64,000 nucleotides of DNA from Naegleria gruberi (lineage: Eukaryota): assembly GCA_000004985.1 (NCBI GenBank), contig GG738871.1, one strand, 5' to 3'. The notes beneath the pieces are model-generated. The model searched no databases, was not told the origin of the DNA, and was given only the letters and a program-made list of their open reading frames with translations. The position numbers and the translations under genes are program-made. Positions 13,701 through 63,258 of the stretch are shown piece by piece. Positions within the stretch are counted from its first letter, which is position 1; every line of letters begins with the position of its first letter.

Positions 13701-14504
13701 TGTGTAATATAATCCCATTGGATTATTCCATGGAGTGGCTGTGAAATTTGCATCATTGAATGGTGGATACTCTGGATAAGGATTCCAATCTGGAGTGCTA
13801 GCACTGAATATGGTGTATGTTTCAGGAAGAACTAATCTCATAATTTTCCCATAATAAATATAGTAAATGTCACCTGTTAGTGGTGATGCAACTATTCCAC
13901 CATCGGTAGGTGATAAACCACAATTAGTGAACCAGTTAAATGAATTATAATTTGCCAAACTATAGTAACCCACGCAATTGTTACCAACATCCATGAAAAG
14001 CAACCAATTGTGAAATTTATCGATGGAAAGCATCTTTCCAAAGTACATGACATCTAGAGGATCCCCTTGTAATAGTTGTTTTTCCATAGTTGAGTGCTCT
14101 TATTTTCATACTAAAATATTCAGATAGGTAGACTTTCTCTTGTGCTTCATCAACAGCAATAAAAGGTTGATCTATAAATCTTTCGTTTCGACTAGTTTAG
14201 AATAGTTTACTTACTGCCAAGAGGAGCCATAAAAACGCTCAAAGTTCCATTAAAAACAGTTCTAATTAATTTAAATAATTAGTAAACTGTGAAAAATCAC
14301 TTACAATATCCTATTTTTGTAATAGTTGTTTTCATTGTTGTGTTCTGCAATGAACATGTCTCCATTGGCCAACACATGTACTGCTCGTGGCATGTTCAAC
14401 GAGCTGACAGCTGTCGTGATTTTGAACTTGACATTTAATGCACTGCACATGCCCAACAAAAGCACGAGGACAAATGCAAATAAAAACGTAAGGTTATTAT
14501 GCAT
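10770..14504 (-). CDS. Large secreted, GPI-like anchored protein. Signal peptide, NHL-repeat beta-propeller region, about 25 tandem tenascin-type EGF modules, then a Ser-rich stalk and a hydrophobic C-terminal tail.
   Basis: Exon 1 (14305..14504) encodes MHNNLTFLFAFVLVLLLGMCSALN (signal peptide) plus an NHL-like GDMFIAEHNNENNYY, and ends at a GTAAGT donor. The main exon (1105-aa ORF 10770..14087) has NHL-like repeats, then 31-aa C.G.C....C.C...Y.G..C modules. The C-terminus ...PSRSERLSSAISLFSNVALISTVLVVGVVFY looks like a GPI signal. The exact exon-2 acceptor is not resolved. Confidence 0.7.
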
Positions 14505-14736: not shown

Positions 14737-15198
14737 TTGGTTTGTTCCATTTGGATTTTGCATATTTTTCTATACGTTTACCAATTGAAATGTTACAAAT
14801 ATCACATACAACAAAACTTTTATCAATTAATAGAACATTATCAACAACACTTTCTTGTTATTAGTCAACATGTTACCACAGTGGAAGGACAGAAGAAGTT
14901 TTATGGTTTAGTTTATGTGGATTTTAATAAAAGGTATGTGTTGTATGATAATTTTCTATTATACGATAAACAGTTTAAGGTACCAATCTGCATGTTCACA
15001 AATCCCCCATTCACAAACCATGGCTGGTCAGGAATGCCGCAATCATCTATGAACGAGGAAACCTACAACGAAGCATGTTTCCAGTTCGATATCATGCTCA
15101 AGATATGTGACTACAGAGTCTTCATCTTGGTTAACCTCAAAGGTCAGATTGACTCAAAAAAGTCGAGTTTATGTAGTCCTACAGAAAAGATCCTGTAG
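14737..15198 (+). CDS. Hypothetical 153-aa ORF containing an NPPF motif (possible fragment of an N6 amino-methyltransferase-like protein)
   Basis: ...KVPICMFTNPPFTNHGWSG... resembles motif IV (NPPF/NPPY) of HemK/N6AMT-type methyltransferases. No GxGxG motif is found, and the assignment is speculative. Confidence 0.25.
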   Translation: MVCSIWILHIFLYVYQLKCYKYHIQQNFYQLIEHYQQHFLVISQHVTTVEGQKKFYGLVYVDFNKRYVLYDNFLLYDKQFKVPICMFTNPPFTNHGWSGMPQSSMNEETYNEACFQFDIMLKICDYRVFILVNLKGQIDSKKSSLCSPTEKIL

Positions 15199-15566
15199 AA
15201 GTACAGTCAATGGTTTTATCCAATTTGTTAGAGTGAGGGGATGATATTGGCTTGGAAAGTGTGTCGGGTGGTGAGGGAAAGTTATGGTTCAATTTATGAA
15301 GGTGAGAAAAATAGAGAAAAACTAAATTCAAGAAAAAGTTTGAGGTTTGAAGAAGGAGAATTTTAAGATTGAAGAAGGTGTGGTATTAGCTAATATTTGC
15401 CATGCATGCTAAGTTACATATAGATAATAGATTACACACAAATTTTACAAATATTGGGTTTGTAACAATTTAAAAGAGTTTATATGTATGAATCAAACTG
15501 TGAAGCAGGGGCTTATCAGCCGAATGAAATATGATAAATTTAGTGTATTTTCATTATGAATGTGAA

Positions 15567-15647
15567 GCAGGGGTTCCCGAGTGGTCAAAGGGGGTAGACT
15601 CAAGTTCTACTGCGCAAGCTTCGTGGGTTCAAATCTCACCTTCTGCA
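15567..15647 (+). tRNA. tRNA-Leu (anticodon CAA), type II with a long variable arm
   Basis: Hand-folded. Acceptor GCAGGGG/CTTCTGC with 2 G-T pairs. Anticodon stem GTAGA/TCTAC with loop CTCAAGT. T-arm GTGGG-TTCAAAT-CTCAC. Discriminator A. Followed by GCTTTT (Pol III terminator). Confidence 0.9.
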
Positions 15648-15906: not shown

Positions 15907-18471
15907 TTATTGTTTAGGCATTGTATCACAGTAATCTGTATAGAGTGGTATGTCTTCCTTGAGGCCCTTTCTCTTTCTGATAGATTTGATGAGCTTGTGA
16001 ACTTTAGATTGAGGATCATAAACATTGTCTTCCATAACTTTCCAATGACTGAAACTACATTGAGGGAAAGCTTGTCCTTGAGTCACACCTCTCAACTCTT
16101 CTGTTAAACCGAAACTTTCCAGCACAGGTAAAGAACCTGTAATACTAACGAGAGGAGTACCAATTACCATTTCAGTAGATTTGATAACACCTCTCCTATT
16201 AGAAATGACACTATAGACAGAACCCATTACTGATTGAGGACATTGAACTTCAACAAGATACATTGGTTCAACTAACTTTGGATCAGCTCTCAATTGACTA
16301 GCAGTCATGACACGTGATGTTGCTTGGAGAATTTGACCAGCTCCACGATGGATAGAATCTGCATGAAGATTACAATCATTAAATTTGAATAATACACCTC
16401 TCATTGCTTCATCACACAAACCTCCCGAAGAACTGCTTTGTTGGAAACTAGTGACAACATATTGTTGAATTTCATTAATATAGTCAACTGATTTGGTTGC
16501 ATTAACCAAAATGTTGCTACCCTTGTCAGCTTCAGGCCCAAAGCTCCAAATTCTCTTTGTTATGCTAGGATCCCATTCAAAGTCAATTTCTAAAATCTTG
16601 GCTCTCTTATTTTGATCATCCATTGGCAATTGACCTTCCTTAATCATTTCAATTAATTCCTCACTGATTGGTTCAGCTTGCATGTATAAACGATTGTGAC
16701 CGTTAGCACTTCTGGCCATGACCATATCACCATTCTTATTTGAAACTGTTTCGTGGAAAGTGACAACAGGAGGAGATTTTTTAATTTGAATTCCTCTGGC
16801 ATATTCTTCTTCTAAATTCTTTAAACAAATTTCCAAATGCAATTCACCTGCTGTTCCTAGAATATGTTGACCACTATCATTTTGCTTACATTCCAATAGA
16901 GGATCACTTTGAACGAGACGTTTCAAACCTTCAACAAATCGAGATAAATCAGCTGGATTGGCTGGTTCAACTCCCATTTGAACTACAGGACTCACAGAGT
17001 ATTTCATATTCTTAATTGGCATACATGCAACTTGTCCTTCTTCTGTCAATGTACATGATTTGATAATGTACTTGTCAAGACCAACAATACCGACGATGGC
17101 ACCACAAGAAGCTTGAGTTATGCTTTCAGTATTTTTACCAACCATTACTAACAATCTTTGAATGCTTGTATGGAAAACATCTTTCTTAGCAATTGGATCA
17201 TAGTTAGGACCTAGAATTCTCACCTTAGTTGATTGAGTCAAACTACCAGAGAAAATACGGGCTAAAGCAATAAAACGACCAACATTATTACTCATACTAG
17301 AGCTAGTATTAGAGTGCATAGGTACCATCTTACTGACATAAACAACTAGTGGTGCATTCGGATCACATTCCTTAATACCAGTAGCGTATGGATCTGTCAA
17401 ATCTTCACCGGTGTAGAGATTATCATACCTTACCTTTTGAGCTTCCTTAGGAGAAGGTAAATGGTTGATAATCATTTGAACTAGAGGTTTGTGAGCTGGG
17501 AGGAACTTTCTCATGATTGATTTAGCTAAAAGTTTCGGCTCTTTTCTCTTTTCTTCTTTCGTCAGAGGTATAGACAATGCGCTGATGATATTTTCCAAAT
17601 CTGTTGACAAAATACCTTCACTAGAAATTTCATGTTCTCTAACCAACTTGAAAATCTTGAAAATAGGTTCTAAAATGAATTCACAGAAAGTGTGCTTCAA
17701 TTGTTCACCACTTGTCGATGAATAAGGTTCAGTGGTAAACTTCTTAGTTGAGTGATCATAATAATTTTCACCCCATAATTTGTTAATAACCTTCTCAACA
17801 GGAAGTTTAAACTTCTTGCTATATAATTGAGCGAATTGCTCCAAAGTGAAAGCCCAACCCATCTTACCTGATCCAAAAGCAATGTTACAGTCAACTGGAT
17901 CAACAGAAACTGACTCATCAGAGTAAGTTGATAATAGAGCATTCACAGACTCGATAATTCTTAAAAAGTTTTGATAACTTTCTTCTTCAGTAAATTGCAT
18001 TTCTTCAATCAAACGGTCAACCTTGTTAATGAAGAGAACAGGACGAATTCTTTCTTGAAGAGATTGTCTAATTACTGTTTCAGTTTGACCTCTACAACCT
18101 TCAGCAGCGTCAACAATCAACACTGCACCATCAGTAATTCTCAAAGCTGTACTAACTTCAGATGAGAAATCAATATGACCTGGACAATCGATCAAATTAA
18201 CCAAGTGGTGATCATTCTCCTTGTCTGGATTTTCTAATACCATACTCAAACTTGTTGATTTAATGGTAATACCCTTTTCAATTTCATTCTTATCTACGTC
18301 GCAAACTCTCTTCTCACCTGCAGCATCTTCATCCACTAAACCAGCTGCTAAAGCCAATTGATCAGTGAGTGTTGATTTACCATGATCAACGTGAGCAATA
18401 ATACTAATGTTACGAATCTTGTTACTGTCGAGTAAGAGCCTTTCGAGTATTTCTTTACTGAACTTGACCAT
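15907..18471 (-). CDS. Elongation factor 2 family GTPase. An eEF2 paralog with the diphthamide site conserved.
   Basis: 854 aa. G1 AHVDHGKST, DCPGH, NKVD. The diphthamide region is LHADSIHRGAGQ. It is collinear over its full length with eEF2, but by eye the identity to canonical eEF2 is only moderate. Confidence 0.88.
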   Translation of the reverse strand: MVKFSKEILERLLLDSNKIRNISIIAHVDHGKSTLTDQLALAAGLVDEDAAGEKRVCDVDKNEIEKGITIKSTSLSMVLENPDKENDHHLVNLIDCPGHIDFSSEVSTALRITDGAVLIVDAAEGCRGQTETVIRQSLQERIRPVLFINKVDRLIEEMQFTEEESYQNFLRIIESVNALLSTYSDESVSVDPVDCNIAFGSGKMGWAFTLEQFAQLYSKKFKLPVEKVINKLWGENYYDHSTKKFTTEPYSSTSGEQLKHTFCEFILEPIFKIFKLVREHEISSEGILSTDLENIISALSIPLTKEEKRKEPKLLAKSIMRKFLPAHKPLVQMIINHLPSPKEAQKVRYDNLYTGEDLTDPYATGIKECDPNAPLVVYVSKMVPMHSNTSSSMSNNVGRFIALARIFSGSLTQSTKVRILGPNYDPIAKKDVFHTSIQRLLVMVGKNTESITQASCGAIVGIVGLDKYIIKSCTLTEEGQVACMPIKNMKYSVSPVVQMGVEPANPADLSRFVEGLKRLVQSDPLLECKQNDSGQHILGTAGELHLEICLKNLEEEYARGIQIKKSPPVVTFHETVSNKNGDMVMARSANGHNRLYMQAEPISEELIEMIKEGQLPMDDQNKRAKILEIDFEWDPSITKRIWSFGPEADKGSNILVNATKSVDYINEIQQYVVTSFQQSSSSGGLCDEAMRGVLFKFNDCNLHADSIHRGAGQILQATSRVMTASQLRADPKLVEPMYLVEVQCPQSVMGSVYSVISNRRGVIKSTEMVIGTPLVSITGSLPVLESFGLTEELRGVTQGQAFPQCSFSHWKVMEDNVYDPQSKVHKLIKSIRKRKGLKEDIPLYTDYCDTMPKQ

Positions 18472-19553: not shown

Positions 19554-19607
19554 ATCCAAGCTCTGCAAATAAAGAAATCTGTGAATAATATGGCAAACAA
19601 AACTATC

Positions 19608-19679
19608 CTCCCATGCCGGGAATTGAACCCGGACCTCCTGGGTGAAAGCCAGGTATCCTAGCCATTGGACTACACGGGA
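19608..19679 (-). tRNA. tRNA-Glu (anticodon TTC)
   Basis: The reverse complement reads TCCCGTG TA GTCC AATGGCTA GGAT A CCTGG CTTTCAC CCAGG AGGT CCGGG TTCAATT CCCGG CATGGGA G. All stems pair. It closely resembles eukaryotic tRNA-Glu. A T-run lies downstream on the minus strand. Confidence 0.9.
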
Positions 19680-20159
19680 ATATATTCAACAGGTAAATGT
19701 ACCCTTAATGGACTAAAAGGAAAATGCTGTGAGCAAAAAGATTGCTGCTCTACTTAGTTTTTTTTTCACTTAATGATTTAGACGGGAAGCCTGCCGGGAA
19801 TATGGCGACTGTCCCGCTACAGTCTTTGACTGTATGAACTGTGAGGTACGTCGTCTTTCGAGTCAGTAAGAGAGAGTGATTGGAGGAAGAGGCACTGAGT
19901 AAGTTTATTCATTGATTTTTAAATTGATCACCTAGATAAAAAGTATTTTGGTTAAAAAAATTCATAATTGCTTTGATCTCTATGTTTAACAAGTATTACA
20001 ATCGAATCTAAAGTTACAAGGAAAAGTTTCAGCCACGTTAAAACTCAACTGTTAAATTGATGAACATTGTCTAAACTTTATGAGATAGTCAACAATGAAA
20101 ATAAGCAATATTGGAATTCCACTGAAATGAAGATTATTTACATGTTAGTTTTTTAATAT

Positions 20160-20696: not shown

Positions 20697-21671
20697 TTTT
20701 GAATTAATTATTGAAGAATGATATAATTGAAGTTTTGTTGTTTTTTTTCAAATTGTTGTTGAGTAATTTTCAGTAATATTCTGCAGTTTTAAAGTGAAAT
20801 CCACGCAATTCTGTCGTCATCATTTTTTTGTAAACTTGAAAAATGTCGTCAGCAGCAGATAAATATAGATTGTCTTGTAAATTTACCATAGTAGTGTTTG
20901 GTGTAGTGACAAAGCTCAAAAAGCTATTGACTCGACAATCACGTGATTATGTGTTAATGTTTCAATTGAAAACATGAAAGAATAAAAGCAAAAGTTAATT
21001 TTGTAAAAAGACTACAGCACCACAGGTTCCCAAGTTGTCTCCAACCTCAGTACTGATGTGGCTCGACGATGTTTAACTTCTCAAATCGGACGGGATGAGG
21101 TGCATTCATCGTGATATGGCCGTAGCCATCAACAACCATAATTTCTGAAATATAAATCTACTACTAAAAGAAGCTCTACTGTGAATCACAAACATCAATT
21201 CCAATAGCTAATATATAAGGTGACTACCAAGAGTTTTTTGGAGTGTATCAATTTATTTCTCACTCCATTTAGACAAGTACTACAAGTCTTCATTGCATAA
21301 TTTAACTTTAATCAAATTATCATTCAATATCCTTTAGGCTTTAACCAATCTCCGGAGGTTCAATTCATTCAAATCTTCATCAATGTATTTGGTACCAATG
21401 ATGACAACAACTCAGTAATCATTATCTATGTCCGCAGAAAATAAATGGCTTACATCAGCCATGACTCTTATGTTGCGTTCTTGTTGTTCGCTCCTTCTTG
21501 CTGCGGTTCTCTTCCTGTGTGACTCAACAACGATAAATTGTAAATCGAAAAAGACTTTAAAAAAAAATCAAGCCTAGGAGAAGCTACTCACTTTCTATCA
21601 ACATAGCTTGTAAATTCACACACCCTCTGCTTGTCTGTTCAAACTAGTAATTTTCGTGCGATCAAATCGAA

Positions 21672-31996: not shown

Positions 31997-34900
31997 ATGA
32001 TGCCAAGATTTTCGGGTTGCACGCTATTAACATTGTTTTTCATTCAAAGTATTGTGTTAATAATACTTTTAACACAAACAACACCAGTTCTCTCATGGTC
32101 CTATAGTATGAGAACTGTAGCTTCAGCACCAGATACTATTACTCAAATTGTTGGTGGTAATCAATTTATTTATGCTGCCTTTGGTTCTGATAATATTGTT
32201 TATTATAACAGAAGTGATTCAACTCAAATTGATGTCGCTACCATGTTGGCTGCTACTAATACTAATGCTGGTTCTACTTTTAAATATGTCGCTTACCATG
32301 GTCAAACTTCTGGAGGAAATGATATCATTTCTGCTGGTACTGTTAGTGGCATCTTTGATAGTGTTGGATTGTATTCATGCGCTATTGATTCACAGAACCT
32401 TCCTGCCTCTTTGACGGCCTTTACTGGCACTTCTCCAACAAAATTATTTGGTGTGAGAGGAAAATCATCTAATTCTCCATCAGATCCTCAATTTTATCTC
32501 ATGACAGATCAAGGAATTATTGAAGCTGATTCATCTAGTTCTTCGCCTGTTGGCTCTGCTTCATTTAGTACTCAAGTTGACTTGGATTTTAATTCTTCCA
32601 TGGTAAGTTTATTTCTTCTAAAAACGTTGTGATAATCTAATACTTTGATAGATATTTTATTTGGATTCTTCTAGTAATCTTTGGTCGGGTTTGACTAGCA
32701 GTACTAAAGTTATTGGCAGCGGACTTAATTTACCAAGATCTTTGAGCTTTGTTGATACTTTTAATCAAGTAAGTGATGAAATAGTACTCATTTCTCTAAT
32801 TAAATTAGATTTTTATCTCTGATACTGGTAATGGTCGTGTTAAAGTTTTGGATCTATCCTCAAATCAAGTTACCACCATTGCCGGAGGTTCTTCAACTCT
32901 TCCACCAAATGACTTTACACTTGTTAGCTCACCAACTAACTATCAAATTACTCCTACTGGTATTTGGGTTGACAAGTCAAATGGATACGTATACATTGCC
33001 GATGGAGCATACATAAGAGTTCTCACACCAACTTGTAACACCATTTCTGAGGATGCCTCTTCTTCATATCCTTTCTGTGTCTGCAAATCAGGCTATATTC
33101 TCCAAGATGGGGTTTGTGTTGTTAACAACTGTTTGACATGTAACTCAAATCAAACTTGCGTATCAAATGCCTGTGTCTGTAAAAATGGTTATTCTGGAGC
33201 TTTATGTTCTGAATACAAGTGTTTTGGTACCCCTAAAGATAATGTTGGAGTATGTAGTAGTAGAGGTTATTGTACTGCACCAGATAATTGTATCTGTACT
33301 GACTCTATGAAATACTCAGGCGCTTCATGTAATGTTACTACCTGTAATTCCATCCCATCCTATCAATCTAATGTTTGTTCTGGAAAAGGTCAATGTACTG
33401 ATTATAACTTGTGTGTATGTACCAACACAACTGAATACGGAGGAGTAAATTGTGAATATTTCAAATGTAATGGACTCAATTCAAATGATGGAAACGTATG
33501 CAGTAAGAACGGCACTTGTGTTGGAATTAATTCATGTTCATGCAATTCAAATTATGCTGGTAACAACTGCCAGTACCCTAAGTGTAACGGAATCCCATCA
33601 ACTGATACTAATAATGTTTGTAATAAGAATGGTACCTGTGTTGCTGTTGATACCTGCAACTGTAATGTTAATTACACTGGTCAATTCTGTCAATATCCAA
33701 AATGTAATGGTACAGCTTCAAACGATGCAAGTGTTTGTAACTCCAATGGTGTTTGTAGTGGTGTTAATAATTGTGTCTGTAATTCAAATTATACTGGCCA
33801 ATACTGTCAATTCCCTAAGTGTAACGGAATTGGCTCAAATGATATTAATGTTTGCTCAAAGAACGGTACCTGTGTTGCTGTTAATACTTGTAATTGTAAT
33901 GTTAATTATACTGGACCATATTGTCAGTATCCAAAATGTAATGGCACGGCTTCAAATGATATTAATGTGTGCAGTAAGAATGGTAATTGTATCGCTCCAA
34001 ATGTTTGTTCATGTAATTCAAGCTTTTCTGGCCAATTCTGTCAATATCCAAAATGTAATGGAATCCCATCAACTGATACTAATAATGTTTGTAATAAGAA
34101 TGGTACCTGTGTTGCTGTTGATACCTGCAACTGTAATGTTAATTACACAGGTCAATTCTGTCAATATCCAAAGTGTAATGGTACAGCTTCAAATGATATT
34201 AATGTGTGCAGTAAGAATGGTAATTGTATCGCTCCAAATGTTTGTTCATGTAATTCAAGCTACACTGGTCAATTCTGTCAATATCCAAAATGTAATGGCA
34301 TTCCATCAAACGATGCTAGTGTTTGTAATTCAAATGGTACCTGTATTGGTGTTAATACTTGTAATTGTAATGCTAATTATACTGGTCAATTCTGTCAATA
34401 TCCAAAATGTAATGGTACTAGCTTCTAATGATACTAATGTTTGCAGTAAGAAGGTGGTAATTGTATTGCACCAAATGTTTGTTCATGTAATTCAAGCTAC
34501 ACTGGACAATTCTGTCAATTCCCAAAGTGTAATGGTATTGGATCCAATGATGGAAGTGTTTGTAATGCAAATGGTACTTGTATTGGAATTAACATTTGTT
34601 CTTGCAATTCGAATTATGCTGGACAATTCTGTCAATATCCAAAATGTAATAGTATTGCTTCGAATAGTGGCAGTGTTTGTAATTCACAAGGATCATGTGT
34701 TGCACCAAATGTTTGTGTCTGTAATTCAAATTATACTGGCACTTATTGTGACAAACCAAGATGTGGCATCTATTATAAGGGTGATGCTTCTGCTTGTAAT
34801 TCGAGAGGTAGTTGTGATGCTGTTGATAGTTGTACTTGTAGTGATACATCTTCTTGGGGTGGCAATTTGTGTCAATATCCAAAATGTAATGCTGTTCTTT

Positions 34901-37017
34901 CAAATGTTGGAACTGTTTGTAGCAGTAGAGGAACTTGTCAATCTCCAAACAATTGTTCATGCACTGATCCAAGTTCATATGGTGGTTCATATTGTGAAAA
35001 AGCAAAATGTTATGGAATTCTTCAAGGAGATTCAAATGTTTGCAGTGGGCATGGTACTTGCAGTGGTGTGAATCAATGTTCATGCAGTGCTGGATATGGA
35101 GGTGAACAATGTCAATATCCAAAATGTTTCACTATTTTGAGTAATGAAACAACAGTTTGTAACAATAGAAACGGTACATGTACTGCACCTGATACTTGTT
35201 CATGTAACAACGGATGGACTGGAAGCAAGTGTGATGTTGCCATTTGTTTTTCAATTCTCTCCAATTCAACAAAGGTTTGTTCAAACAAGAGAGGTAGTTG
35301 TGTCACACCAGATAATTGTGTTTGTAAAAGTCAATATTCAGGTTCTCAATGTGAATATACCACTTGTTCTGGAATAAGATCAGATCAAACATCGACAGTA
35401 TGTTATGGAAATGGTCAATGTATTGATTATAATACTTGTAATTGTACAACTGGTTATGGACCATCCAATGTATGTCAATATCCAATTTGTGGTGGCTATT
35501 TGGCAAATGATACAAGAGTTTGTAACAATTCAAGAGGTGTATGTTTGAGACCAAATGAATGTAGACCATTAGATCCCGTATGTTATGGTAAAGCTCAGAA
35601 TAATTCAATGGTTTGTAGTGGACATGGTTCATGTATCGATTGGGATTATTGTGAATGTAAAACTGGTTTCAATGGAAATGAATGTCAAAATTGGGAATGT
35701 TATGGAAAGAATTATACCAACTCAAATGTTTGTAACAATGGAAATGGTACCTGCTCATCTGTGAATAATTGTGTTTGTAACAGTGGATGGTATGGAAATG
35801 AATGTACAGTTCCAATGTGTAATGGAATTCTTGCAAATTCATCCCTAGTTTGTAACAATGGAAATGGTACCTGCTCCAAACCAGGTGCATGCCAATGTAA
35901 TACTGGATACACAGGATCTGACTGTTCCATTCCAATTTGTTATGGCAAATTAGGCACTGATACAAGTAATGTTTGTTCAGGAAGAGCAGACTGTATTGGT
36001 TATAACAAGTGTAATTGTGACACTTCCAAGTATAGTGGTTCACAATGTGAATATTTCAAATGTTTTGGTATTCCGTCAAATGATGCTTCAGTTTGCAGCA
36101 GAAACGGAACATGTTCAGGTGTGAATCAATGTTCTTGTAATTATGGTTATGGTTCTTCAAATTGTGACATTTTCACATGTTCAAATGTTCTTGCCACCAA
36201 TTCAAGTGTTTGCAGTGGAAAGGGTGTATGTTATGGAATTGACAAGTGTTCATGTGATTCAGGATATTTTGGATCAAATTGTGAAATTATCTCCTGTTAT
36301 GGAATTCCAAAGTCCAACAATACTGTATGTGGTGGAGTTGGTGAATGTTCACAACTTGATACATGTGTTTGTGGAAGCGGTTATAGAGGCTCAATGTGTG
36401 AATTATCTTACACCTCTTCATCTCAAGCAACACTTCAATTCAACAATACGAATGAATATGTGAATGAACAATTCACAAGCATGGTCACTTTGACAATTAA
36501 TAATCCACTCTTCGGCCAATATTATTTGAGAAGAAGTGTTCAAGTTGTTGTTTCATTTGAAATTAATTCACAATTCAGTTATTCTGAAACACTTTATATT
36601 GAAAATGGAGTTTCATCTGTTTCATTAATGGTGAAATCGTTGAGTCAAACTGGTACATTGAAAGCATCTGCTCAATTAATTGATAATAGCACATTGATTT
36701 CCATTTCAGATAGTATTCAATCTTCAAATAGCATTACAATTCAAAATAGACCTATTGTTGTTCCATCTACAAAGACATCCACAACCAAACCAACAACCTC
36801 TGCACAAACAAGTAGAGCTGTTATCGATACAGGAAGTAATGCAGGAGCCATTGCAGCTGGTGTTATTGTTCCAGTGGCAGTTATTGGAATTGGAGGTGGT
36901 GTCACTGCAGCCATTGTCACAGCAGTTGTTTTATTAAAGAAGAAGGCTGCTGCAGCTGCTGCCGCAGAAATTTCCCATGCTCAACACGTCAATGTTGAAC
37001 TTGTTGAAGGTTTCTAA
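31997..37017 (+). CDS. Large type-I membrane protein. Signal peptide, NHL-repeat region, about 38 tandem tenascin-type EGF modules, stalk, TM helix and a short poly-Ala/Lys tail. Exons 31997..32602, 32652..32768 and 32809..37017. There is an internal +1/+2 compensated frameshift at about 34420-34460.
   Basis: Signal peptide MMPRFSGCTLLTLFFIQSIVLIILLTQT. NHL-like ISDTGNGRVKVLD. The introns are GTAAGT..AG and were verified by hand. The EGF module is C.G..C....C.C...Y.G..C repeated. The C-terminus reads AGVIVPVAVIGIGGGVTAAIVTAVVLLKKKAAAAAAA. This is a paralog of the minus-strand gene at 10770..14504. Confidence 0.75.
33480..34560. repeat. Array of near-identical 93-nt EGF-module coding repeats. 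Stretches of about 89 nt are 100% identical, for example 33590-33678 and 34062-34150.
   Basis: Read directly. Long exact DNA repeats lie inside the CDS, consistent with recent duplication or gene conversion. This is a likely hotspot for assembly collapse. Confidence 0.8.
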
Positions 37018-51502: not shown

Positions 51503-53008
51503 ATGAACAATTCAAAATCTTCAATGATTTCATTCGGGGCAGCAATTGTCTCGATGATAGCAGTCACATTGATGATGCTATCAATAGCCTCTGCCTTCTC
51601 GGTAAAGAGTGATATCGATTATCGTACAGTATTGTCTGATTATGTGAAGGGAAATAATCAATACTTTAAATATCAATTGAAGGGTACTTATGATAATGAT
51701 TATGGAAAATTCATAATCTTCAACATGACCAGTGTAAAGTGGTTGGATGAGAAGGAGCTTGGGAATAGCTGCTATTGGTTCCACTTGGTCGAAATTGCCA
51801 TTCCAAAGAAGATTAAGCAACAATCAAATGTGTTGATGTTGGTTGCTGGTGGATCTCAAAAGGAGATTGCACCAACAAGTGATAATGAATTAATGAAAAT
51901 GGCTGCCAGTACTCAATCTATTGTTGCATCTATTCATCAAATTCCAAATCAACCTTTGGTTTTCAATTCTGATCCAACAAGACAACAAAGAATTGAAGAT
52001 GAAATTCTTGCCTATGCTTGGGCAAAATTCATGCAAAACACAACTCAAACTGGGTGGATTCCAAGATTACCTATGGTTAAGGCAACCATGTTGGCAATGG
52101 ATGTTGTTCAAGAATATTTGAGAACTACCTTATCAATTAATGTAATGAATTTCCATGTTGCAGGAGCAAGTAAGAGAGGTTGGACCACTAATTTGGTAGG
52201 TGTTGTTGATAAGAGAGTTAGAAGTATCATGCCAATCGTTATTCCAGTAATGAAAACTAGAGATATTCTTGGTAAGTTAACAAAACTATATTAGTTAATG
52301 ACCCTATTGTAAAATATAGAACATTCTTACAATTCGCTTTGCACATGGCCAGAAGCAATGGGTGATTATGTTAAAGAAGGTATCACTACAAAATTAAACT
52401 CTAAAGAATTCCATCAACTGACAACAGTTATAGATCCTTTCGAATATAATGATATTTTGGCAACAATCAACAAGTATTTCATTTATGCCACTGGTGATCA
52501 ATTCTTCCTTTGCGATCTTAGTCAATTCTCTTATCCATACCTTAAGGGAGGTGACCAACTCAAACATTTAAGATATGTTCCAAATACTGATCACTCTTTG
52601 GATGGATCTGATGCCCAAGTTTCTGCTTTAGCTTATTACTTTAGTTTGGCCAACAAGCTTCCACTTCCAGTTTACAATTTTACAGCAGTTTCTGATAGGA
52701 CTGGCGTTTCTGTTGGTGTCAAGGTAATGAGCCCGATTCCACCATCTGCTGTCCTGTTGTGGGAAGCTCGTGCTCCACAAAGAGATTTCAGACTTCAAAC
52801 CATTGGAAAAGCATGGAAACCAAGACCACTCCAATTGTCTAAAGATGGTAGTGTTTCAGTTCACCTGGATAATCCAGCCACTGGCTATTATGCTGCCTTT
52901 GTTGAATTAACATTTGATTATTTAGGAACACAAATTCCTCTCAAGTTTACAACATCAGTTTATGTTCTTCCTGATATTTTGCCATGTAAATACCATAATA
53001 AAGTTTAA
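51503..53008 (+). CDS. PhoPQ-activated pathogenicity-related protein (PqaA) family secreted protein. Exons 51503..52270 and 52353..53008.
   Basis: Signal peptide MNNSKSSMISFGAAIVSMIAVTLMMLSIASA. The intron is GTAAGT...CAG in phase 1 and joins ...VMKTRDIL-E-AMGDYVKEGITT. GASKRGW is a serine-hydrolase-like motif. The overall length and order resemble the bacterial/dictyostelid PhoPQ-related family. This is from memory and unverified. Confidence 0.55.
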
Positions 53009-55660: not shown

Positions 55661-56950
55661 TTACACATTTCTTGCATTTTCGAGAGAGGAAAATAATTGT
55701 TCCAAATCATCAGGATTTGGTAATGAATAAGAATCCAACATTTCAGAAATTTGAGCACTCCTAGAAGATGAAGGGAAAATTCTACTAGTATACGTTGACT
55801 GATTATCGGCTTCCAAATAATTATTATCATTATTATTTACAGAAGATGATGGAGGTGGTGTTTGGTGTCTATTTTCATGTAATCCAATTGAGTGAATATT
55901 TGGATACACGTTTTGGTGAACTACTGGAGTTGTGAAAAAAGAGGGTTGAGGTGGCAAGACTGGTTGAAATTCTGGTGAATTGAAACTCAATCCAAATGGT
56001 GTTGACTGAGTTGGAAACTTGTTTCCACTGTTGTGTGAATTGAATGGAGCGACAGCATTAAGCGGGATGTATGGTGAAGTGTTTCTCATGGCCACTATCT
56101 GTTGCATAAATGGATTATGAAAAGATGGATTTGGTTGAGTAGAGGAATTATTTTCACCGCTAACCTTTGTAAAGGTAGTTTGAGGGGAACAGTTTTGAAA
56201 GGATATTTGTGAAGAGGGAATGGTTTGACCAAATGAGATGAGTTGTGAATTGTTCAAACCTGGTGATTTCACTTGTTGAAACATTAAATAACCAGAGTTG
56301 ACAGTGGATTGTGAGGAATTTGAGGAAGTAGAGTTGTGACTCATTTCACTGTTTGTTGAAGAGGTAGAACTTTGAGAGCAGGCTGAGGAAATTGAAGGAG
56401 AGGAAACATTGTTGAAAGGATTGTTACCCGAATACAATTGTGAAGGAGTGGATGGTGAAATTCGTGTGTGAGGAGATGTGCTAGTGGATGATGAACAAGT
56501 TGACTGATTGGTATTTGTGTTGGAATTACATGTTCGAGGAAGAATTTTCATGTTGAGTGAGTTTTTTCTTTGCTCTTGCAATGTTTTCAATCTTTCTTCT
56601 CTTGTGGTCTTTCGTTTAATTTGTTCAACACATTGAATTCCATTCTTGATGCATCTAGAGCAAGACCTTTGTTCACCACAAGATCTATCACATCTTGCAT
56701 GTGCTTTATGACAAGCAACACAAGCCACTGTACAATGATGATGACAATAATTTCAGTTCATGAGGATTAAAAAGGAATTAGCAAAAATCTTACCTTTTTT
56801 ACTCTTCTTTTTTTTAATACCATTGTGGTCTGTGTTTGTATGAGGAGATGAGTCATTAGATTCACTACTATTTGATTTATCATCACGACGATTTGCAACA
56901 CCCTTATGATCAACACCTTGAGAGTGATTGGTGTGGATATTAGAGTGCAT
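55661..56950 (-). CDS. Zn(II)2Cys6 binuclear-cluster DNA-binding protein with a Ser/Thr/Asn/Pro-rich tail. Exons 56803..56950 and 55661..56726.
   Basis: The exon-2 start reads CVACHKAHARCDRSCGEQRSCSRCIKNGIQC, which is C-x2-C-x6-C-x9-C-x2-C-x6-C. Exon 1 is basic (KKKSKK) and ends at a GTAAGA donor in phase 1. The intron is 76 nt. Confidence 0.65.
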
Positions 56951-57847: not shown

Positions 57848-59277
57848 ATGTTCGCCTCAAGGAGAATAGCTGTTGTTGGTGTTGGTGAGGAAAAATCAAG
57901 TTTGATGACCTTAATCGAACAAGAACACGGAACGGTTACTTCAAGTGTTTCTAGCACTACTCACATGTTAATCACAATGAACAAGAAATTGGTAGCAGCA
58001 AAGAATGCGTTGAAGTATAACATTCCGATATTCAGTGTTGATGAATTTAAACAAAAGTACTTCAAAAACATGTGATTGTTAATACGTTTGATTTATTTTA
58101 CCTTCATTATAGTGAAGAGGAAATCCCAAATAAGAACAAGAGAAAAGCTGACCCAAGTGTAACGGATATAGCAGAAGACTTGACAATGCGTACCCCAAAT
58201 AAACAACTTTCAGAGTCTACTACTATTGTTCAAAGATTCGAAACTCCAACCAAATTTTTTAGTTCTTTGGGCCTTAGTCCCCAACCGATTTGATTCGTCC
58301 AAACAGATAGCTCAAGCACTCTTAGAACAGAAAACCTACCCAAAGGGAATGCTTCCAGTTTTGAGTCAACATTTTGGAAGTGGCAAAACAGCACTTGTTG
58401 CAAACTTCCGTGGTGTTTTGGAACAACAAGAATACATCAATGATGATACTTATTTTGATAAATTGATGAAAGCAGCTTTGGTGAGACTTGACATGACTAC
58501 TATTGATCAATTTGTACCTTTAACAACAAACCTTACTACTGGAATAATTCGTACTCATTTAGTGGCGAGCATTTCTGAAGCACTGGCTAAATTGAGAGAG
58601 AACAATCCTAATACTCTTAATCTTGAAAAAAGCTATAGTACAATATTAGAACTATCATCCACTCAACAAAATTCCCTTGTTGCAAAACAACTCGAAGATT
58701 CGCCTAGTATTTTTTCATTTCTCCAAGCATGGTCTCTCAACAACATCTATTCCTTACTTGTATTTTTTGATGAATTGGGATCTCTTGAAAATCCACGGAT
58801 CCACTCATGCAATTTTGGAATGATATTGCAAATTTAATCGGCCAAGAAAAAAATATTCACAATATATTCATAATTGTGGCCGGAAAATCTGCCACCTTAG
58901 CTCAATTAGGTAGGCAAGAACATGGAAGACTCGTATCGCCTACACCAGCTACACATATTGTTCTTGATATGCTTTCTATTGAGTTTGTTATCGAATTAAT
59001 AGAAAAGTTTAACCCTGACATATCTCTCATAAGGAAATCTCCGAACAAAATTAAGGAGTTTGCACAGATTACAAAATCAAGAATTTTTGTTCCTAAAAGA
59101 ATTGAAGCTATTATACTGGGAAAGGAAGCATTTGATACATTCTTTACAATAGAGGACAAGAACATGTTGGACAGATTATCTTCAAATGAGCTGCCCAATA
59201 TTGATTACTTGAAAAATTTCTCCCAATCAATCAGTTGCATTCAGAGGCACCATTGGAATGGCGTTAATTTAAATTGA
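57848..59277 (+). CDS. BRCT-like domain plus P-loop NTPase (AAA+/RFC1-like architecture). It is fragmented over 4 ORFs in alternating frames, and its introns or frameshifts are unresolved.
   Basis: The N-terminal region MFASRRIAVVGVGEEKSSLMTLIEQEHGTVTSSVSSTTHMLITMNKK...YNIPIFSVDEF is a BRCT-like pattern. Walker A is VLSQHFGSGKTALV. Walker B is LLVFFDELGS. The C-terminal helical region is in the 58807..59277 ORF. Confidence 0.4.
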
Positions 59278-60141
59278 TTTATTGTAATGTTACTTGGAGT
59301 ATTCGATGAGTTTAGTAATACACAAGTTATGAGAATTTGACAACTGTTAGAACAATTGCAATTTTTGGGAGAACACTTCGTTACTGATTGTGGTGGTTCT
59401 TCAAATCGAATATAATTCTTGTGAAACGTTTCAAAATTGTGTTGTCCTTTGGCTGAGATTGCTTGATTGTTGATTATTTTCTAATGAATTCTCTGACACC
59501 ATTGAAAGCGTGGAAAGTTACGAAATTATTGCTTGTCGACAAAATAGTAAAGAACTGTTATGCATGTGAAAAACACATTTCAAGTCGCGAACCATGTTGT
59601 TGTTTTGCAAAATAAATGTTCTATTACAATTTCGATGATCATCAAACTACTGTTTGTATCTTCTTAGTATGCCTTATCAAATGGAGTTGACCAATTGAGA
59701 TCCAACCAAATTACTTCTCTCATTACAACATTGTACAAAAAAAATTACAACAACATTCATACCACCATCACTAGCAAAAAAGGGTAGTTTGAATTTTCAG
59801 TCTTCTGACCCACACGCACTTTTTGATTCTTGCAAGACATCATCTTCCACAAAATTAGCGCCTAATTTTTTTGGTAAAGCTGAAAAAAATATTTTTGTCA
59901 AGATTTGGATTTAATTTTTGTTGTATTCAATAAGCATCATCACCAGCAATAGACTGAACATCAAGAGTTTTTTGTCAACACTAAACTTTTGTCCATCATT
60001 GATATTGTTTAAATAGGATTGTAGATAATCAACTGTTTTAAAGATCCGATATTGTGATTGAGAAACAAATTCACACAATCAGCATCAACATCAATTAATT
60101 TATTATTTAAATAATTATTATTGGAGTACTAGTAACACAAT

Positions 60142-63100
60142 ATGCCATTATTTGGAATACCTAAAAAGCCACTACAAAAAAGAGGATTAGGTCAGGCCCA
60201 AGATAAACAATGGCCATCCAATAAGCCTGTTTTTCATATTCCAATCACCGATGAGGTTTTTGATGATTATGAGTAAGTAGTGATGATCACATAGACTTGA
60301 CCATATTTACAACTTACAATAGGGATTATGTCAATAGGCAAATAATGTATAAACTTCAAATTTGGAGTTGTCAATACACAGGAAGAGAAAACATGACATA
60401 TGAACAAGCATTGGAATCAGAAAAAGAACACAAACAACAAGATTTGTTTAAATATTATCCTAGATATATTCTTCGTCATATTTGTTATATGGTACATAAT
60501 TGTAGAAAGGGTGAAACTTTCCAAGAATTAGCACATAGAATGGCCAAGTTTTTTGAGTATAACTTCATAGAGGGTGAGGAACTTTACTGTGAGTTGGACA
60601 CAACGTAAGTATTTTCAATTATTCACTCCGAATCAAATATTGTTATTGTTGATAGTATTTCTGTTGTTTTAAAAAGAATACTTCTCAAGAAACTTCACTA
60701 TTATTTGAATGATCCAAATTTTCCTCCTTTTTCTGCACCTTTGTATATAACAGATGCTGATAGTCATCAAATTGAAGTTTTTCATCAAACAAAACCACAG
60801 GAACATCATTATGATTACGATTTACTGAACATGGGATATGGTACACAAGGAAAACTTTACGAAGTTGAAGTTGTTTCAAATAATTCTACTTTTGAAAACA
60901 AAATCATTGTTGTGTACTACACTGTATTACTCAGAAAACAGAGCTCTCTAATCGAATCTGTTGATAAGATTATGAGATGGTTACATGAATATACCTTTTT
61001 GGATGAGGATGGAATGATTTTATTGAAACCTGAATTATTGGAATATTTCAAACTTGAACCAAGAGCTGCAGCACAATGCGAAGTTAAATCAAAATATCAA
61101 AAGAAAATTGATGAAGAAATGTATGATATTGAGAGATTTAAGCATGGAAGAATCAAGTCTTTGTATGATTTAAAGTATCATCATGTTGATAAGTTCGGAA
61201 GGCTTATGTCTGATATCAAGGAAATCGAATCATCGCTCAAAGGCATTCCTGTTGCAGAGCCATCACATTCTTCATCAACAAATGGTAGTAATATTCAAAA
61301 CAGTCATTCAACAAATGGTATTGTTGTTGAACATTATGAACAGCCAAGTGCCCCTGTTGTACAACAAATTAATCCATTACTATTACCAAAGAAGGATGGA
61401 ACCATACTAGATGAATATATTGCGGATAGAGAACCTCAAAAATCTGATGAAAACTTTCCAAAGTTCCATTATGATTTCATTATCAAAACTCCAGAATGTA
61501 TTCCTGATGCTTTAAACATATTTAATTTCCTTTTTTCTTTTAGAGGACCTCTCAAATTGGATCCATTTACTTTTGACGAATTCCAAAATGCTTTAGAATG
61601 TAAAGATGAAAACAATCCACTATTAAGATCAACTTTACAACATGGTAAGAAACAAGGATCAAAGAATGATTAATCTCCCTTCAAGAAAATTAGTCATCAA
61701 TAGAGATGCAACTGTATACATTGCTCAAACCATTCCAGTTATTCCTCTCCGTGAATATTGGAAAGTGTTCATGCCTCACGAAATAATTAATATTAAAAAG
61801 GAAGAAGTTATCAAACAAGTACCTGAAGTTAAGCAAGAACAAGAAGAAGTTAAACAAGAAGAGCCTAAATCTGAATCAAATGGAAATAGTGCTGCAGAGC
61901 CAACTATTATTGAAGATGACAAGGATGTTGAAATGAAAGAAAGTGTAAAGGTAGAAACAACACCATCATCTGAACCAACAACAGCAACAACAACAGATGA
62001 GCAACAACAACCTGCTGAACCTGCTGAGGTCAATCAAGTCAAGGAAGAAAATAATGAAACAACTAACCAAGAAGTGAAAACTGAAGAAATTAAGGAGGAG
62101 GAACCAACTGCACAAAGTAATAATAATATGGTAGATGAAGATGTAAAGCAGGTAAAGAGTGTTGTTGAAAGAGCAATGGAATTCATCAAGAGTGATGCCT
62201 ATGATGATAATGAAATTGACTTTTTCAAACACTTGGATTCCGATGTTAAAGTATATATTTTAAGCAAGCTAACAGAACAATGCATTTTGACAGCCACTAT
62301 CAGAGAATTTACAGATGAAAATATTGAACACATGAAAAAGTTGAAGAGACAAAAGAATTTGGAAAATACTGAAGATATTGAAAAATCAAAAGAAGAAACT
62401 GAAGAGGCAAAGAAACTAACTGCTGAAGAATTGAAATCAAGAAGGAATAAGAGAGAGAAAGTCTATCAAGATTTACTTTCCCTTCATGCAATTAGAGCCA
62501 AACCTCTAGGATATGACAGACGGTTCAATCGTTATTGGTTCTTCCCAACTTTTGTTGGTGTACTTTTTGTTGAACCATGTTCTCCATTCAGACTTGTTGT
62601 AAACAACGGTGTTGCTGATCCAGTGGAAACAAGACATTGGGGATATTTATGTACAAAGAAAGAGATTGAAACTTTAATTTCCACCTTAGATCCAAGGGGA
62701 TTCCGCGAAAAGAAACTTCTCTCAAATTTAAATAAGTATAGAAGAGAAATAATAGATCAAATCACTCTGAGAAATTCTGCCATTAATCCAGAAATGGTAG
62801 CCGAAGATGTACCATTAAGCACAGCTCAAACGACTGAATCTGTCCCATCATCAAATGGAGGAGAATCAAAGACAGAAGTAGCCTCGTCCTCCTCAACTAC
62901 AGACAATGAAATGAAAGATGAAGCACCAATTACTAAACCTGAACAAACTCCTGAAACATCCAATGTACCTTCAATTGTTATTGATGATGTTTCTACAGAT
63001 TCTCCATCAAAGAAGAGAAAACATACAGATGACAATGTATCTGACATTAGTGAAGTGTCATCTAGTTCACAACAACCTAAGAGAACTAAATTAGATACAA

Positions 63101-63258
63101 CCCTCGAAGAAATTGCAACTAAGTATCCTACGAAATTCAAACCAAGCATAGAGTCTTTCCAACCAACTTCATTCCTCAAATATCGAAATAGTCAGGAAGA
63201 AGTTATTCCTGCAGACTCTGAATGTTTCCTTCCAGACGAAGATGAGGAAGAAGATTAA
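60142..63258 (+). CDS. ACF1/BAZ1/Itc1-like ISWI-complex subunit with WAC and DDT domains. Exons 60142..60272, 60323..60604, 60677..61644 and 61739..63258.
   Basis: The spliced N-terminus MPLFGIPKKPLQK...KPVFHIPITDEVFDDYE|DYVNRQIMYKLQIWSCQYTGRENMTYEQALESEKE aligns with the BAZ1A/ACF1 WAC motif (…EVFYCKVTNEIF..YDD…LVWSCAVTGRPGLTYQEALESEK). The DDT motif is DALNIFNFLFSFRGPLKLDPFTFDEFQNAL. All four junctions are GTAAGT/GTAAGA..AG and in frame. Confidence 0.75.

What the first reader, a model, noticed from the sequence alone, without database searches (positions are those of the whole stretch)
57848..59277. BRCT plus P-loop NTPase gene split across alternating reading frames
Four consecutive ORFs in frames 2,1,2,1 encode in turn a BRCT-like fold, an acidic/basic linker, a Walker A/Walker B NTPase core (HFGSGKTAL ... 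LLVFFDELG) and a helical C-terminal domain. The order resembles the N-terminal half of RFC1, but the motifs are non-canonical; RFC1 has GPPGxGKT. I could not place clean GT..AG introns at two of the three frame changes. The locus may be a recently decayed gene or a divergent STAND/AAA+ regulator with unusual splicing.
Basis: partly seen in the sequence, partly recalled or inferred. Interest (0 to 1): 0.5.

Follow-up and report, generated by a model that had tools for sequence, protein, structure and literature searches.

The report
Decayed BRCT–AAA+ pseudogene in Naegleria
The four out-of-frame reading frames are the wreck of a single Naegleria gruberi gene (BRCT domain plus an Orc/Cdc6-like AAA+ ATPase), broken by small deletions and one large internal deletion; it is an ordinary pseudogene, not a case of unusual splicing.

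Summary
ORFs at 57848-58075, 58072-58293, 58226-58837 and 58807-59277 lie in frames 2,1,2,1, and codon usage follows those frames. ORF1 passes Pfam's BRCT threshold. ORF3 and ORF4 carry Walker A and Walker B motifs.

The window is Naegleria gruberi NEG-M. The locus belongs to a very small, uncharacterised family. Its intact paralogs in the same genome are D2VCJ1, D2VVY1 and D2VYU3, 749-837 aa. A model of D2VCJ1 is closest to archaeal Cdc6/Orc1 AAA+ proteins, not specifically to RFC.

Only the first frame change is an intron: 58072-58112, 41 nt, with a GTGAGT donor in a related strain. The second is a 2-nt deletion at 58271/58272. The third is a 10-nt deletion at 58788/58789. About 370 codons are also missing at about 59005.

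The same locus on a metagenome contig is 93-97% identical. It carries different lesions: a TAA stop, deletions of 16, 8 and 1 nt, and a large deletion with other end-points. Merging the two copies restores one uninterrupted 485-codon ORF.

pN/pS is about 0.5, and coding divergence is at least that of the non-coding flank.

Verdict: a recently decayed, unprocessed pseudogene. Interest is low. The parent family is mildly interesting.

The parts
57848..58071 (+). Exon 1 with the BRCT domain (MFASRR...KYFKN), intact reading frame 2.
   Evidence: Pfam PF00533 scores 25.0 bits against a gathering score of 21.3. There are 3 substitutions in 182 aligned nt versus L001. It aligns in one BLASTP match, together with the linker and the P-loop, to the N-terminus of P0006 (E 2e-21).
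58072..58112 (+). Intron 1, 41 nt, GTGATT...TATAG. It accounts for the first frame change (frame 2 to 1).
   Evidence: Splicing joins ...KYFKN|IEEEIPNK without a stop. In L001 the donor is the consensus GTGAGT, while the alternative donor at 58057 reads GC there. A canonical 50-nt intron, 60273-60322, lies in the neighbouring gene. The minimum intron length used for N. fowleri was 30 bp (PMC8296547).
58113..58271 (+). Exon 2, first part. It encodes an acidic/basic linker with an NLS-like KNKRK and the family's TPxK motif (RTPNKQ), in frame 1.
   Evidence: It aligns to the disordered N-terminal regions of the paralogs, which carry TPKK/TPQK about 30 residues before the PFVNRE motif. Coding potential is positive in frame 1.
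58271..58272 (+). Site of a 2-nt deletion (GGGAACC to GGGCC). This is the second frame change (frame 1 to 2).
   Evidence: In alignment A1, L001 keeps the two bases and reads linker and ATPase in a single frame...TKF*SSLGTLVPKIVNRFDSSKQ.
58282..58283 (+). Site of a 9-nt in-frame deletion that removes KIV from the family motif P-(F/K)-(V/I)-V-N-R.
   Evidence: L001 reads VPKIVNRFD and the paralogs read IPFVNRE/IPFINRE, while the window reads VPNRFD.
58272..58788 (+). N-terminal two thirds of the AAA+ core, in frame 2. Walker A (GSGKT) is at 58376-58390 and Walker B (LLVFFDE) at 58754-58774.
   Evidence: tblastn of P0002 residues 115-291 gives 37% identity. phmmer gives E 1.8e-45 to P0002. The weak Pfam hit is AAA_16, E 0.03-0.06.
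58788..58789 (+). Site of a 10-nt deletion (GAAGAAAATTACAAATCC to GAAAATCC). This is the third frame change (frame 2 to 1).
   Evidence: L001 and P0001 read DELGSLEENYKSTDPLMQFW in one frame. P0003 reads DEVSYLEYLYKSTEGVTQLW. No GT/GC..AG intron can join the frames while keeping both Walker B and the next strand.
58789..59005 (+). Rest of the AAA+ core, in frame 1: the strand IFIIVAGKS, a candidate arginine finger in LGRQ, SPTPATHIVLDML, and the start of the lid helix (EFVIELIEK).
   Evidence: It aligns to P0002 residues 296-391 and to the family consensus VAGKSxxLxKLGR...SPTPxxHIxLDML.
59005..59006 (+). Junction of a large internal deletion of about 370 codons (P0002 residues 392-761). It is in frame in this copy. 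It removes the lid/GGIPRL helical region, the middle domain and the core of the C-terminal domain.
   Evidence: tblastn finds only P0002 residues 115-391 and 762-831 in the window, and no other copy anywhere in the 64 kb. L001 still has residues 392-472 but lacks 473-794.
59006..59277 (+). Remnant of the family's C-terminal tail (SLIRKSPNKIKEF...RIEAIILGKEAFDTFFTIEDKNMLDRLSSNELPNIDYLKNF) and the TGA stop at 59275-59277.
   Evidence: It aligns to P0002 residues 762-831 (E 3e-10) and P0007 residues 260-347 (E 3e-13).

Best explanation
The locus is an unprocessed, intron-retaining pseudogene in Naegleria gruberi NEG-M. Its parent is a member of a small lineage-specific family. The family's domain order is an optional N-terminal BRCT, a disordered TPxK linker, an Orc1/Cdc6-like AAA+ ATPase with lid, a helical middle region, and a C-terminal domain that may have a restriction-endonuclease-like fold.

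Shown:
- The four ORFs are one former gene.
- The first frame change is a normal 41-nt intron.
- The second and third are 2-nt and 10-nt deletions.
- About 370 codons are deleted internally.
- The same locus in a closely related strain is broken by a different set of lesions.

Inferred:
- The gene was still intact, over at least its first 485 codons, in the common ancestor of the two copies, and decayed independently afterwards under relaxed selection.
- It makes no functional ATPase now. At most, a transcript could yield a 134-residue BRCT-plus-linker peptide ending at the TGA at 58291-58293.
- The intact paralogs probably act as ATP-dependent switches on DNA or chromatin. This part is speculative.
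For: Organism. Seven window ORFs are exact matches to NAEGRDRAFT proteins on one 417,575-nt scaffold.

Family.
- A whole-library phmmer search finds only 9 proteins. They include N. gruberi D2VCJ1 (E 1.8e-45), D2VVY1 and D2VYU3, 749-837 aa.
- The family alignment places the window copy on the N-terminal 390 or so residues and the C-terminal 70 or so residues only.

Lesions.
- L001 is 92.7% identical over the gene and 96.8% identical over 565 nt of downstream non-coding DNA, so it is the same locus.
- Alignment A1 gives the indels. The window lacks 2, 9, 10 and about 180 nt. L001 lacks 16 and 8 nt, plus 1 nt in the intron, and has TAA where the window has TTT. A further 1-nt loss in L001 (GAATTAATG to GAATAATG) comes from reading A1 and the frame translations by eye.
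- At each indel the undeleted state agrees with the intact paralogs.
- Taking the undeleted state at every indel gives one open 485-codon frame, from the ATG at 57848 through the spliced intron.

Selection.
- There are 12 synonymous and 23 non-synonymous differences, so pN/pS is 0.51. An omega of 0.2 or less is rejected (p 0.006).
- Differences by codon position are 8/11/16, not different from uniform (p 0.25).
- Coding divergence is 1.6-5.7%, against 2.0% in the non-coding flank.

Fold. The AlphaFold model of D2VCJ1 has pLDDT 60-90 over residues 100-450. Its best Foldseek matches are Cdc6/Orc1: 1fnn at E 5.8e-7, then 1w5t, 1w5s and 2qby.

Annotation. No product matching simple gene models of the locus is in the protein collection.
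Against: - Every lesion is seen in only one assembly, so none is cross-validated. I could not inspect reads.
- pN/pS of 0.5 differs from 1 only marginally (p 0.048), so some constraint acted for part of the divergence time, or still acts on parts such as the BRCT exon.
- The BRCT exon and the intron splice sites are intact, so a truncated BRCT-linker product is not excluded.
- There are no expression data.
- L001 could be a very recent paralog or a divergent haplotype rather than an ortholog. That would not change the pseudogene call.
Confidence: 0.88

Rival explanations
1. A functional gene whose frames are joined by unusual means: non-canonical or very short introns, programmed ribosomal frameshifting, or RNA editing.
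For: Four ORFs in the right domain order carry coding-like codon usage. Weak GT..AG pairs exist at the second junction, for example 58262-58310, 49 nt, GTTCTT..ATAG.
Against: - The 58262-58310 candidate would excise the conserved PFVNR motif, and in L001 it would not remove the TAA stop.
- At the third junction no GT/GC..AG pair keeps both Walker B and the following strand.
- The frame changes are not conserved. L001 reads straight through both sites and is broken elsewhere. A recoding signal would be conserved.
- About 370 codons of the family are missing in any case.
Confidence: 0.03
2. Assembly or sequencing errors in an intact, though shortened, gene.
For: Each lesion is private to one assembly. 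One junction lies next to short A and T runs.
Against: - The indels are 2, 9 and 10 nt, plus a deletion of about 1.1 kb. They are not single-base homopolymer slips.
- Other genes in the window have uninterrupted ORFs of 850-1100 codons that match the annotated proteins exactly.
- An independent Illumina metagenome assembly of the same locus is also riddled with lesions.
- From my own knowledge, NEG-M was Sanger-sequenced.
Confidence: 0.05
3. Independent short genes. A small BRCT-only protein (exon 1 plus exon 2, 134 aa) is still made and used, while the ATPase part is dead.
For: The BRCT exon, the start codon and the intron are intact. The exon is the least diverged part, at 1.6% with pN 0.014 and pS 0.029.
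Against: - Only 3 substitutions are involved, which has no statistical weight. The non-coding flank is just as conserved at 2.0%.
- In L001 the same product would be cut by a 16-nt deletion in exon 2.
- No such product is on record.
Confidence: 0.06

Closest known systems
Naegleria gruberi paralogs NAEGRDRAFT_66589 (D2VCJ1, 837 aa), NAEGRDRAFT_52686 (D2VVY1, 749 aa) and NAEGRDRAFT_74243 (D2VYU3, 765 aa), all annotated 'predicted protein'
   Same: They share the TPxK linker, the PFVNRE motif, Walker A SQH(F/Y)GSGKT, Walker B LL(F/I)(F/I)DE, VAGKSxxLxKLGR, SPTPxxHIxLDML, and the C-terminal tail EVIxLGxxxFxSFFxxxDxxxL. Identity is 33-42%.
   Different: The window copy has two frameshifts, lacks about 370 internal codons, and has a clear N-terminal BRCT exon. 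The three annotated paralogs do not show a BRCT. D2VCJ1 has only a possible vestige, EEYIPFDNDEF. I could not read their upstream DNA.
Archaeal Orc1/Cdc6 and the PF01637 'ATPase_2' group of AAA+ proteins (PDB 1fnn, 1w5s, 2qby, 2fna)
   Same: These are the best structural neighbours of the modelled paralog, with Foldseek E 5.8e-7 to 4e-4. Weak sequence hits go to AAA_16, AAA_22 and ATPase_2. A P-loop, hhhhDE, a following strand and a helical lid are all present.
   Different: No Pfam family reaches its threshold. The first Walker A position is Q instead of G/A. The BRCT in front and the roughly 400-residue extension behind have no counterpart in Orc1/Cdc6. There is no evidence for a role in replication.
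RFC1 (large subunit of replication factor C)
   Same: The domain order is the same: a BRCT domain N-terminal to an AAA+-type ATPase.
   Different: RFC box III (GPPGxGKT) and the SRC arginine-finger motif are absent. No RFC, AAA or Rep_fac_C Pfam hit appears. RFC small subunits rank below Cdc6/Orc1 in the fold search, at E 1.4e-4. All sequence relatives are Naegleria-type orphans.
Prokaryote-type 'AAA-ATPase_like + PDDEXK_9' proteins (PF09820 and PF08011). This is recalled from memory and is a lead only.
   Different: Neither Pfam family is hit at E up to 0.1. Foldseek finds nothing significant for the C-terminal model, with a best E of 0.047. The putative motif reads D...AxK, not D...ExK. The window copy has lost this region altogether.

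Membership tests
Unprocessed pseudogene | Clear homology to an intact protein-coding family | tested here: met
   E 1.8e-45 to D2VCJ1. Five further relatives have E values between 1e-13 and 1e-21.
Unprocessed pseudogene | Disabling lesions relative to intact relatives | tested here: met
   A 2-nt deletion at 58271/58272, a 10-nt deletion at 58788/58789, and loss of P0002 residues 392-761.
Unprocessed pseudogene | Relaxed selective constraint | tested here: met
   pN/pS is 0.51 from 12 synonymous and 23 non-synonymous differences. Omega of 0.2 or less is rejected (p 0.006). Coding divergence is at least that of the non-coding flank. Lesions are lineage-specific in both copies. The counts are small.
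Unprocessed pseudogene | Retains an intron and its genomic context, so it is not a retrocopy | tested here: met
   The 41-nt intron at 58072-58112 is present in both copies, and there is no poly(A) tract.
Unprocessed pseudogene | No functional full-length transcript or protein | not testable with these tools
   No RNA-seq or proteome data were available. No matching product is in the protein collection for five simple gene models.
BRCT domain (PF00533) | Score above Pfam's gathering threshold | tested here: met
   25.0 bits against 21.3, covering residues 13-68 of ORF1.
AAA+ ATPase superfamily (parent family of the locus) | Walker A GxxxxGK[ST] | tested here: inconclusive
   The motif is QHFGSGKT. 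GxGKT is present, but the first position is Q rather than G/A in all members.
AAA+ ATPase superfamily (parent family of the locus) | Walker B hhhhDE | tested here: met
   LLVFFDE at 58754-58774. The paralogs have LLLFFDE or LILIDE.
AAA+ ATPase superfamily (parent family of the locus) | AAA+ fold: an alpha-beta-alpha core plus a helical lid | tested here: met
   The model of paralog D2VCJ1 gives 60 PDB matches at E up to 1e-3. All 50 that are listed are AAA+/STAND-type ATPases, headed by Cdc6/Orc1 at 5.8e-7. This was tested on the paralog, not on the window copy.
AAA+ ATPase superfamily (parent family of the locus) | A Pfam AAA-clan model above its threshold | tested here: not met
   Best hits are AAA_16 at E 0.03 (15 bits against 32.6), AAA_22 at E 0.005, and ATPase_2 at E 0.015.
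RFC1 / clamp-loader clade | RFC box III GPPGxGKT and the SRC motif | tested here: not met
   Walker A is SQHFGSGKT. There is no SRC in the window ORFs or the paralogs.
RFC1 / clamp-loader clade | RFC proteins as the closest sequence or fold relatives | tested here: not met
   There are no RFC Pfam hits. RFC small subunits rank 23rd and 29th in the fold search, at E 1.4e-4 to 2.3e-4, behind Cdc6/Orc1, HslU and Vps4.
PD-(D/E)xK nuclease fold (C-terminal domain of the parent family) | Restriction-endonuclease-like alpha-beta-beta-beta-alpha-beta core with D...(D/E)xK | tested here: inconclusive

The most novel reading that the evidence does not exclude
The locus is a snapshot of rapid birth-and-death turnover in an undescribed family. 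The family is restricted to Naegleria and combines a BRCT domain, an Orc/Cdc6-like AAA+ ATPase and a nuclease-like domain.

The intact members (D2VCJ1, D2VVY1, D2VYU3) would act as ATP-dependent, nuclease-armed sensors, for example in genome defence against viruses or mobile DNA, or in a lineage-specific DNA-damage response. Several independently truncated copies fit such turnover: the window, L001 and L002.
Probability: 0.15. Interest if true: 0.5.

Novelty: new member of a known kind. Interest (0 to 1): 0.22.

Why it matters
For the finding itself, very little. It is a dead gene. It should be annotated as a pseudogene, not as a split or exotically spliced gene.

Two points have modest value.
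- It gives a clean, dated example of gene decay in N. gruberi. Two copies are about 3% apart, each carries its own lesions, and together they restore an intact frame.
- It draws attention to a tiny orphan family with no Pfam domain assignment: only 9 detectable relatives among 1.84 billion representative proteins. The family joins a BRCT module to an Orc/Cdc6-like AAA+ ATPase and a possible nuclease-like domain, and several of its copies are truncated.

Tried and rejected
- The word-indexed homology search with the 454-aa concatenation gave nothing. This was a false negative, because the same tool later returned P0001.
- Exact gene look-ups of window proteins and of P0002 in the contig index failed. 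As a result I could not inspect the DNA upstream of the intact N. gruberi paralogs for a BRCT exon.
- I enumerated all GT/GC..AG introns that keep an open frame. It produced many weak candidates. None at the second or third junction is compatible with the conserved motifs or with L001.
- A profile of the family against PDB sequences gave only noise, at E 0.3 or worse.
- NCBIfam and PADLOC gave no hits for five family members.
- The Foldseek afdb50 library was unavailable.
- Foldseek of the C-terminal domain model against the PDB gave nothing significant.
- A literature search on Naegleria pseudogenes found nothing relevant to this family.
- The idea of a minus-strand gene downstream (59278-60140) was dropped, because the minus-strand frame I translated there (one of the three) is full of stops.
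- The RFC1 reading was considered and rejected; see the membership test.

Full report
**Observation.** The four ORFs exist as described. They are 57758/57848-58075 (frame 2), 58072-58293 (frame 1), 58226-58837 (frame 2) and 58807-59277 (frame 1). I trained a codon-usage log-odds profile on 13 long ORFs of the same window. It is positive in these frames, in this order, and negative in the other frames and on the other strand. ORF1 passes Pfam's threshold for BRCT, at 25.0 bits against 21.3. The ATPase part gives only sub-threshold hits, with AAA_16 at E 0.03-0.06. HFGSGKTAL is at 58370-58396 and LLVFFDE at 58754-58774.

**Organism and context.** The window has 32-36% G+C and short GTAAGT..AG introns, for example 60273-60322 in the neighbouring gene. 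Seven of eight single-ORF proteins from the window are exact matches to Naegleria gruberi NEG-M proteins on one 417,575-nt scaffold. They include UDP-glucose dehydrogenase EFC43802, EF2 EFC43897 and a Rab GTPase EFC43894. The window is therefore N. gruberi NEG-M. The locus lies between a Zn2Cys6 gene (55661-56728, minus strand) and a WAC/DDT/WSD gene (60142-63258, plus strand).

**Relatives.**
- A first word-indexed search with the concatenated protein found nothing. This was later shown to be a false negative.
- A full phmmer scan of 1.84 billion representative proteins with ORF3+ORF4 found only nine proteins.
- Three are N. gruberi 'predicted proteins': D2VCJ1 (837 aa, E 1.8e-45, 42% identity), D2VVY1 (749 aa) and D2VYU3 (765 aa).
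- The others come from metagenomes and read archives.
- None has a Pfam, NCBIfam or PADLOC assignment.
- Full-length members share this order of features:
  - a disordered N-terminus with a TPxK motif, followed by PFVNRE;
  - the ATPase motifs SQH(F/Y)GSGKT, LLFFDE, VAGKSxxLxKLGR and SPTPxxHIxLDML;
  - a helical region with GGIPRL;
  - about 300 further residues that include HPAPKSRSSDFxI...AFAVKN;
  - a tail reading EVIxLGxxxFxSFF.

**What the window copy lacks.** tblastn with D2VCJ1 finds only its residues 115-391 and 762-831 in the window, and no second copy anywhere in the 64 kb. About 370 codons are missing, with the junction near 59005/59006. One is the end of the AAA+ core. The other is the last 70 or so residues of the family.

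**The frame changes.** The 93%-identical hit P0001 lies on a 2,107-nt metagenome contig, L001 (ERZ929261). L001 matches the window at 92.7% over the gene and at 96.8% over 565 nt of downstream non-coding DNA. It is therefore the same locus in a closely related strain. The pairwise alignment and the indel list settle all three junctions.
1. *Frame 2 to 1.* This is a 41-nt intron at 58072-58112. Its donor is GTGATT in the window and the consensus GTGAGT in L001. The alternative donor at 58057 reads GC in L001. Splicing gives ...KYFKN|IEEEIPNK.
2. *Frame 1 to 2.* The window lacks 2 nt (GGGAACC to GGGCC, at 58271/58272). Eleven bases further on it lacks 9 nt. With these bases present, L001 reads linker and ATPase in one frame, and it carries VPKIVNRFD, the family's PFVNRE motif.
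3. *Frame 2 to 1.* The window lacks 10 nt at 58788/58789. L001 reads DELGSLEENYKSTDPLMQFW in one frame, like P0003's DEVSYLEYLYKSTEGVTQLW.

No GT/GC..AG intron at junctions 2 or 3 fits the conserved motifs.

**The related copy is also dead, but differently.** L001 carries these lesions:
- a TAA stop where the window has TTT;
- a 16-nt deletion in exon 2;
- an 8-nt deletion after AGKSAT;
- a 1-nt deletion in GAATTAATG;
- a large deletion with other end-points. It keeps D2VCJ1 residues 392-472, which the window lost, and lacks 762-794, which the window kept.

I merged the two copies by taking the undeleted state at every indel and TTT in place of TAA. The result is one uninterrupted 485-codon frame, running from the ATG at 57848 through the spliced intron to L001's deletion point. 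Every lesion is therefore private to one lineage. The common ancestor probably had an open frame over at least that length.

**Selection.** Between the two copies there are 35 substitutions in about 1,200 aligned coding positions: 12 synonymous and 23 non-synonymous. This gives pN/pS of 0.51. Differences by codon position are 8/11/16, which is not different from uniform (p 0.25). An omega of 0.2 or less is rejected (p 0.006), and omega of 1 is only marginally disfavoured (p 0.048). Coding divergence of 1.6-5.7% is not lower than that of the non-coding flank at 2.0%. This fits loss of constraint during the short time since the two copies split.

**What the parent family is.**
- An AlphaFold model of D2VCJ1 built on an 11-sequence alignment has an overall pLDDT of only 59. 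Residues 100-450 reach 60-90.
- Foldseek against the PDB gives 60 matches at E up to 1e-3. All 50 that are listed are AAA+/STAND-type ATPases.
- The list is headed by archaeal Cdc6/Orc1 (1fnn at 5.8e-7, then 1w5t, 1w5s and 2qby), followed by ORC subunits, HslU and Vps4.
- RFC small subunits appear only at 1.4e-4 and SSO1545 (2fna, Pfam ATPase_2) at 4e-4.
- The ATPase is therefore an AAA+ fold, closest to the initiator/ATPase_2 group. It is not a clamp-loader subunit.
- The RFC-specific GPPGxGKT and SRC motifs are absent.
- Foldseek finds nothing significant for that model, with a best E of 0.047. The candidate motif reads D...AxK. A nuclease-like fold is only a tentative suggestion.
- The BRCT module is not peculiar to this locus. 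P0006/P0010 encode BRCT, linker and P-loop in a single ORF, with BLASTP E 2e-21 across all three parts. That copy, on L002, is itself truncated.
- The three annotated N. gruberi paralogs show no clear BRCT. I could not read their upstream DNA.

**Mechanism and verdict.** The locus does nothing as an ATPase. The P-loop and Walker B segments lie in a frame that cannot be reached from the start codon. The lid, the middle region and the core of the C-terminal domain are gone. The only product that could still be made is a 134-residue BRCT-plus-linker peptide ending at the TGA at 58291-58293. There is no evidence for it, and it would be truncated in L001. No protein corresponding to simple models of the locus is in the protein collection.

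I put the probability of an unprocessed pseudogene at about 0.88. The rivals are recoding or unusual splicing (0.03), assembly error (0.05), and a surviving BRCT-only gene (0.06).

Its 'unusual splicing' and its RFC1 analogy are not. The finding is ordinary. The orphan BRCT-AAA+ family behind it is the only mildly interesting part.

**Background figures.** N. gruberi NEG-M has 41 Mb, 33% G+C, 1.7 exons per gene and a mean intron length of 203 bp. A minimum intron length of 30 bp was used for N. fowleri (PMC8296547). A 41-nt intron is therefore short but within range.

Noticed in passing
window 14982-15210 (-), 21009-21127 (-), 15567-15647 (+), 19607-19680 (-): Non-coding RNA genes sit among the protein genes: a U3 snoRNA (77 bits), a dispersed 5S rRNA gene (104 bits), tRNA-Leu(CAA) and tRNA-Glu(TTC).
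   Followed up: no
window 60142-63258 (+): The downstream neighbour is a chromatin-remodelling-type protein with DDT and WSD domains (a WAC-like N-terminus by eye) and at least two short introns. One is a canonical 50-nt GTAAGT..TAG intron at 60273-60322, which I used as a reference for intron size in this genome.
   Followed up: partly
window 51503-52294 and 52358-53008 (+): A homolog of bacterial PhoPQ-activated pathogenicity-related protein (PF10142) is split over two adjacent ORFs covering profile positions 1-220 and 228-367. A single short intron probably separates them.
   Followed up: no
window 10770-14087 (-) and 32848-37017 (+): Very large, cysteine-rich genes carry EGF-like repeats. 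The repeat periodicity produces a spurious 539-aa ORF in an alternative frame at 33452-35071.
   Followed up: no
L001 1-211: The first 106 nt of the metagenome contig are the reverse complement of nt 106-211. This is probably a hairpin artefact at the contig end, so the start of the BRCT exon cannot be compared there.
   Followed up: partly
L002 1716-3239: A third, more distant copy of the family has BRCT, linker and P-loop in one ORF. It is also truncated: a stop follows IFSMVAG, then a 60-aa remnant ORF, then nothing. It lies next to a 1,864-aa gene that I did not characterise. Truncated copies seem common in this family.
   Followed up: partly
tool behaviour: The word-indexed protein search returned no hit for the 454-aa concatenation, although a 93%-identical 188-aa protein (P0001) is in that collection. 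The pre-filter limit of 8000 candidates can hide close relatives of low-complexity-rich queries.
   Followed up: yes
window 15907-18471 (-): The EF2 gene in the window belongs to a 90%-identity cluster with three other full-length N. gruberi EF2 proteins on other scaffolds. This points to several near-identical EF2 copies or haplotypes in the assembly.
   Followed up: no
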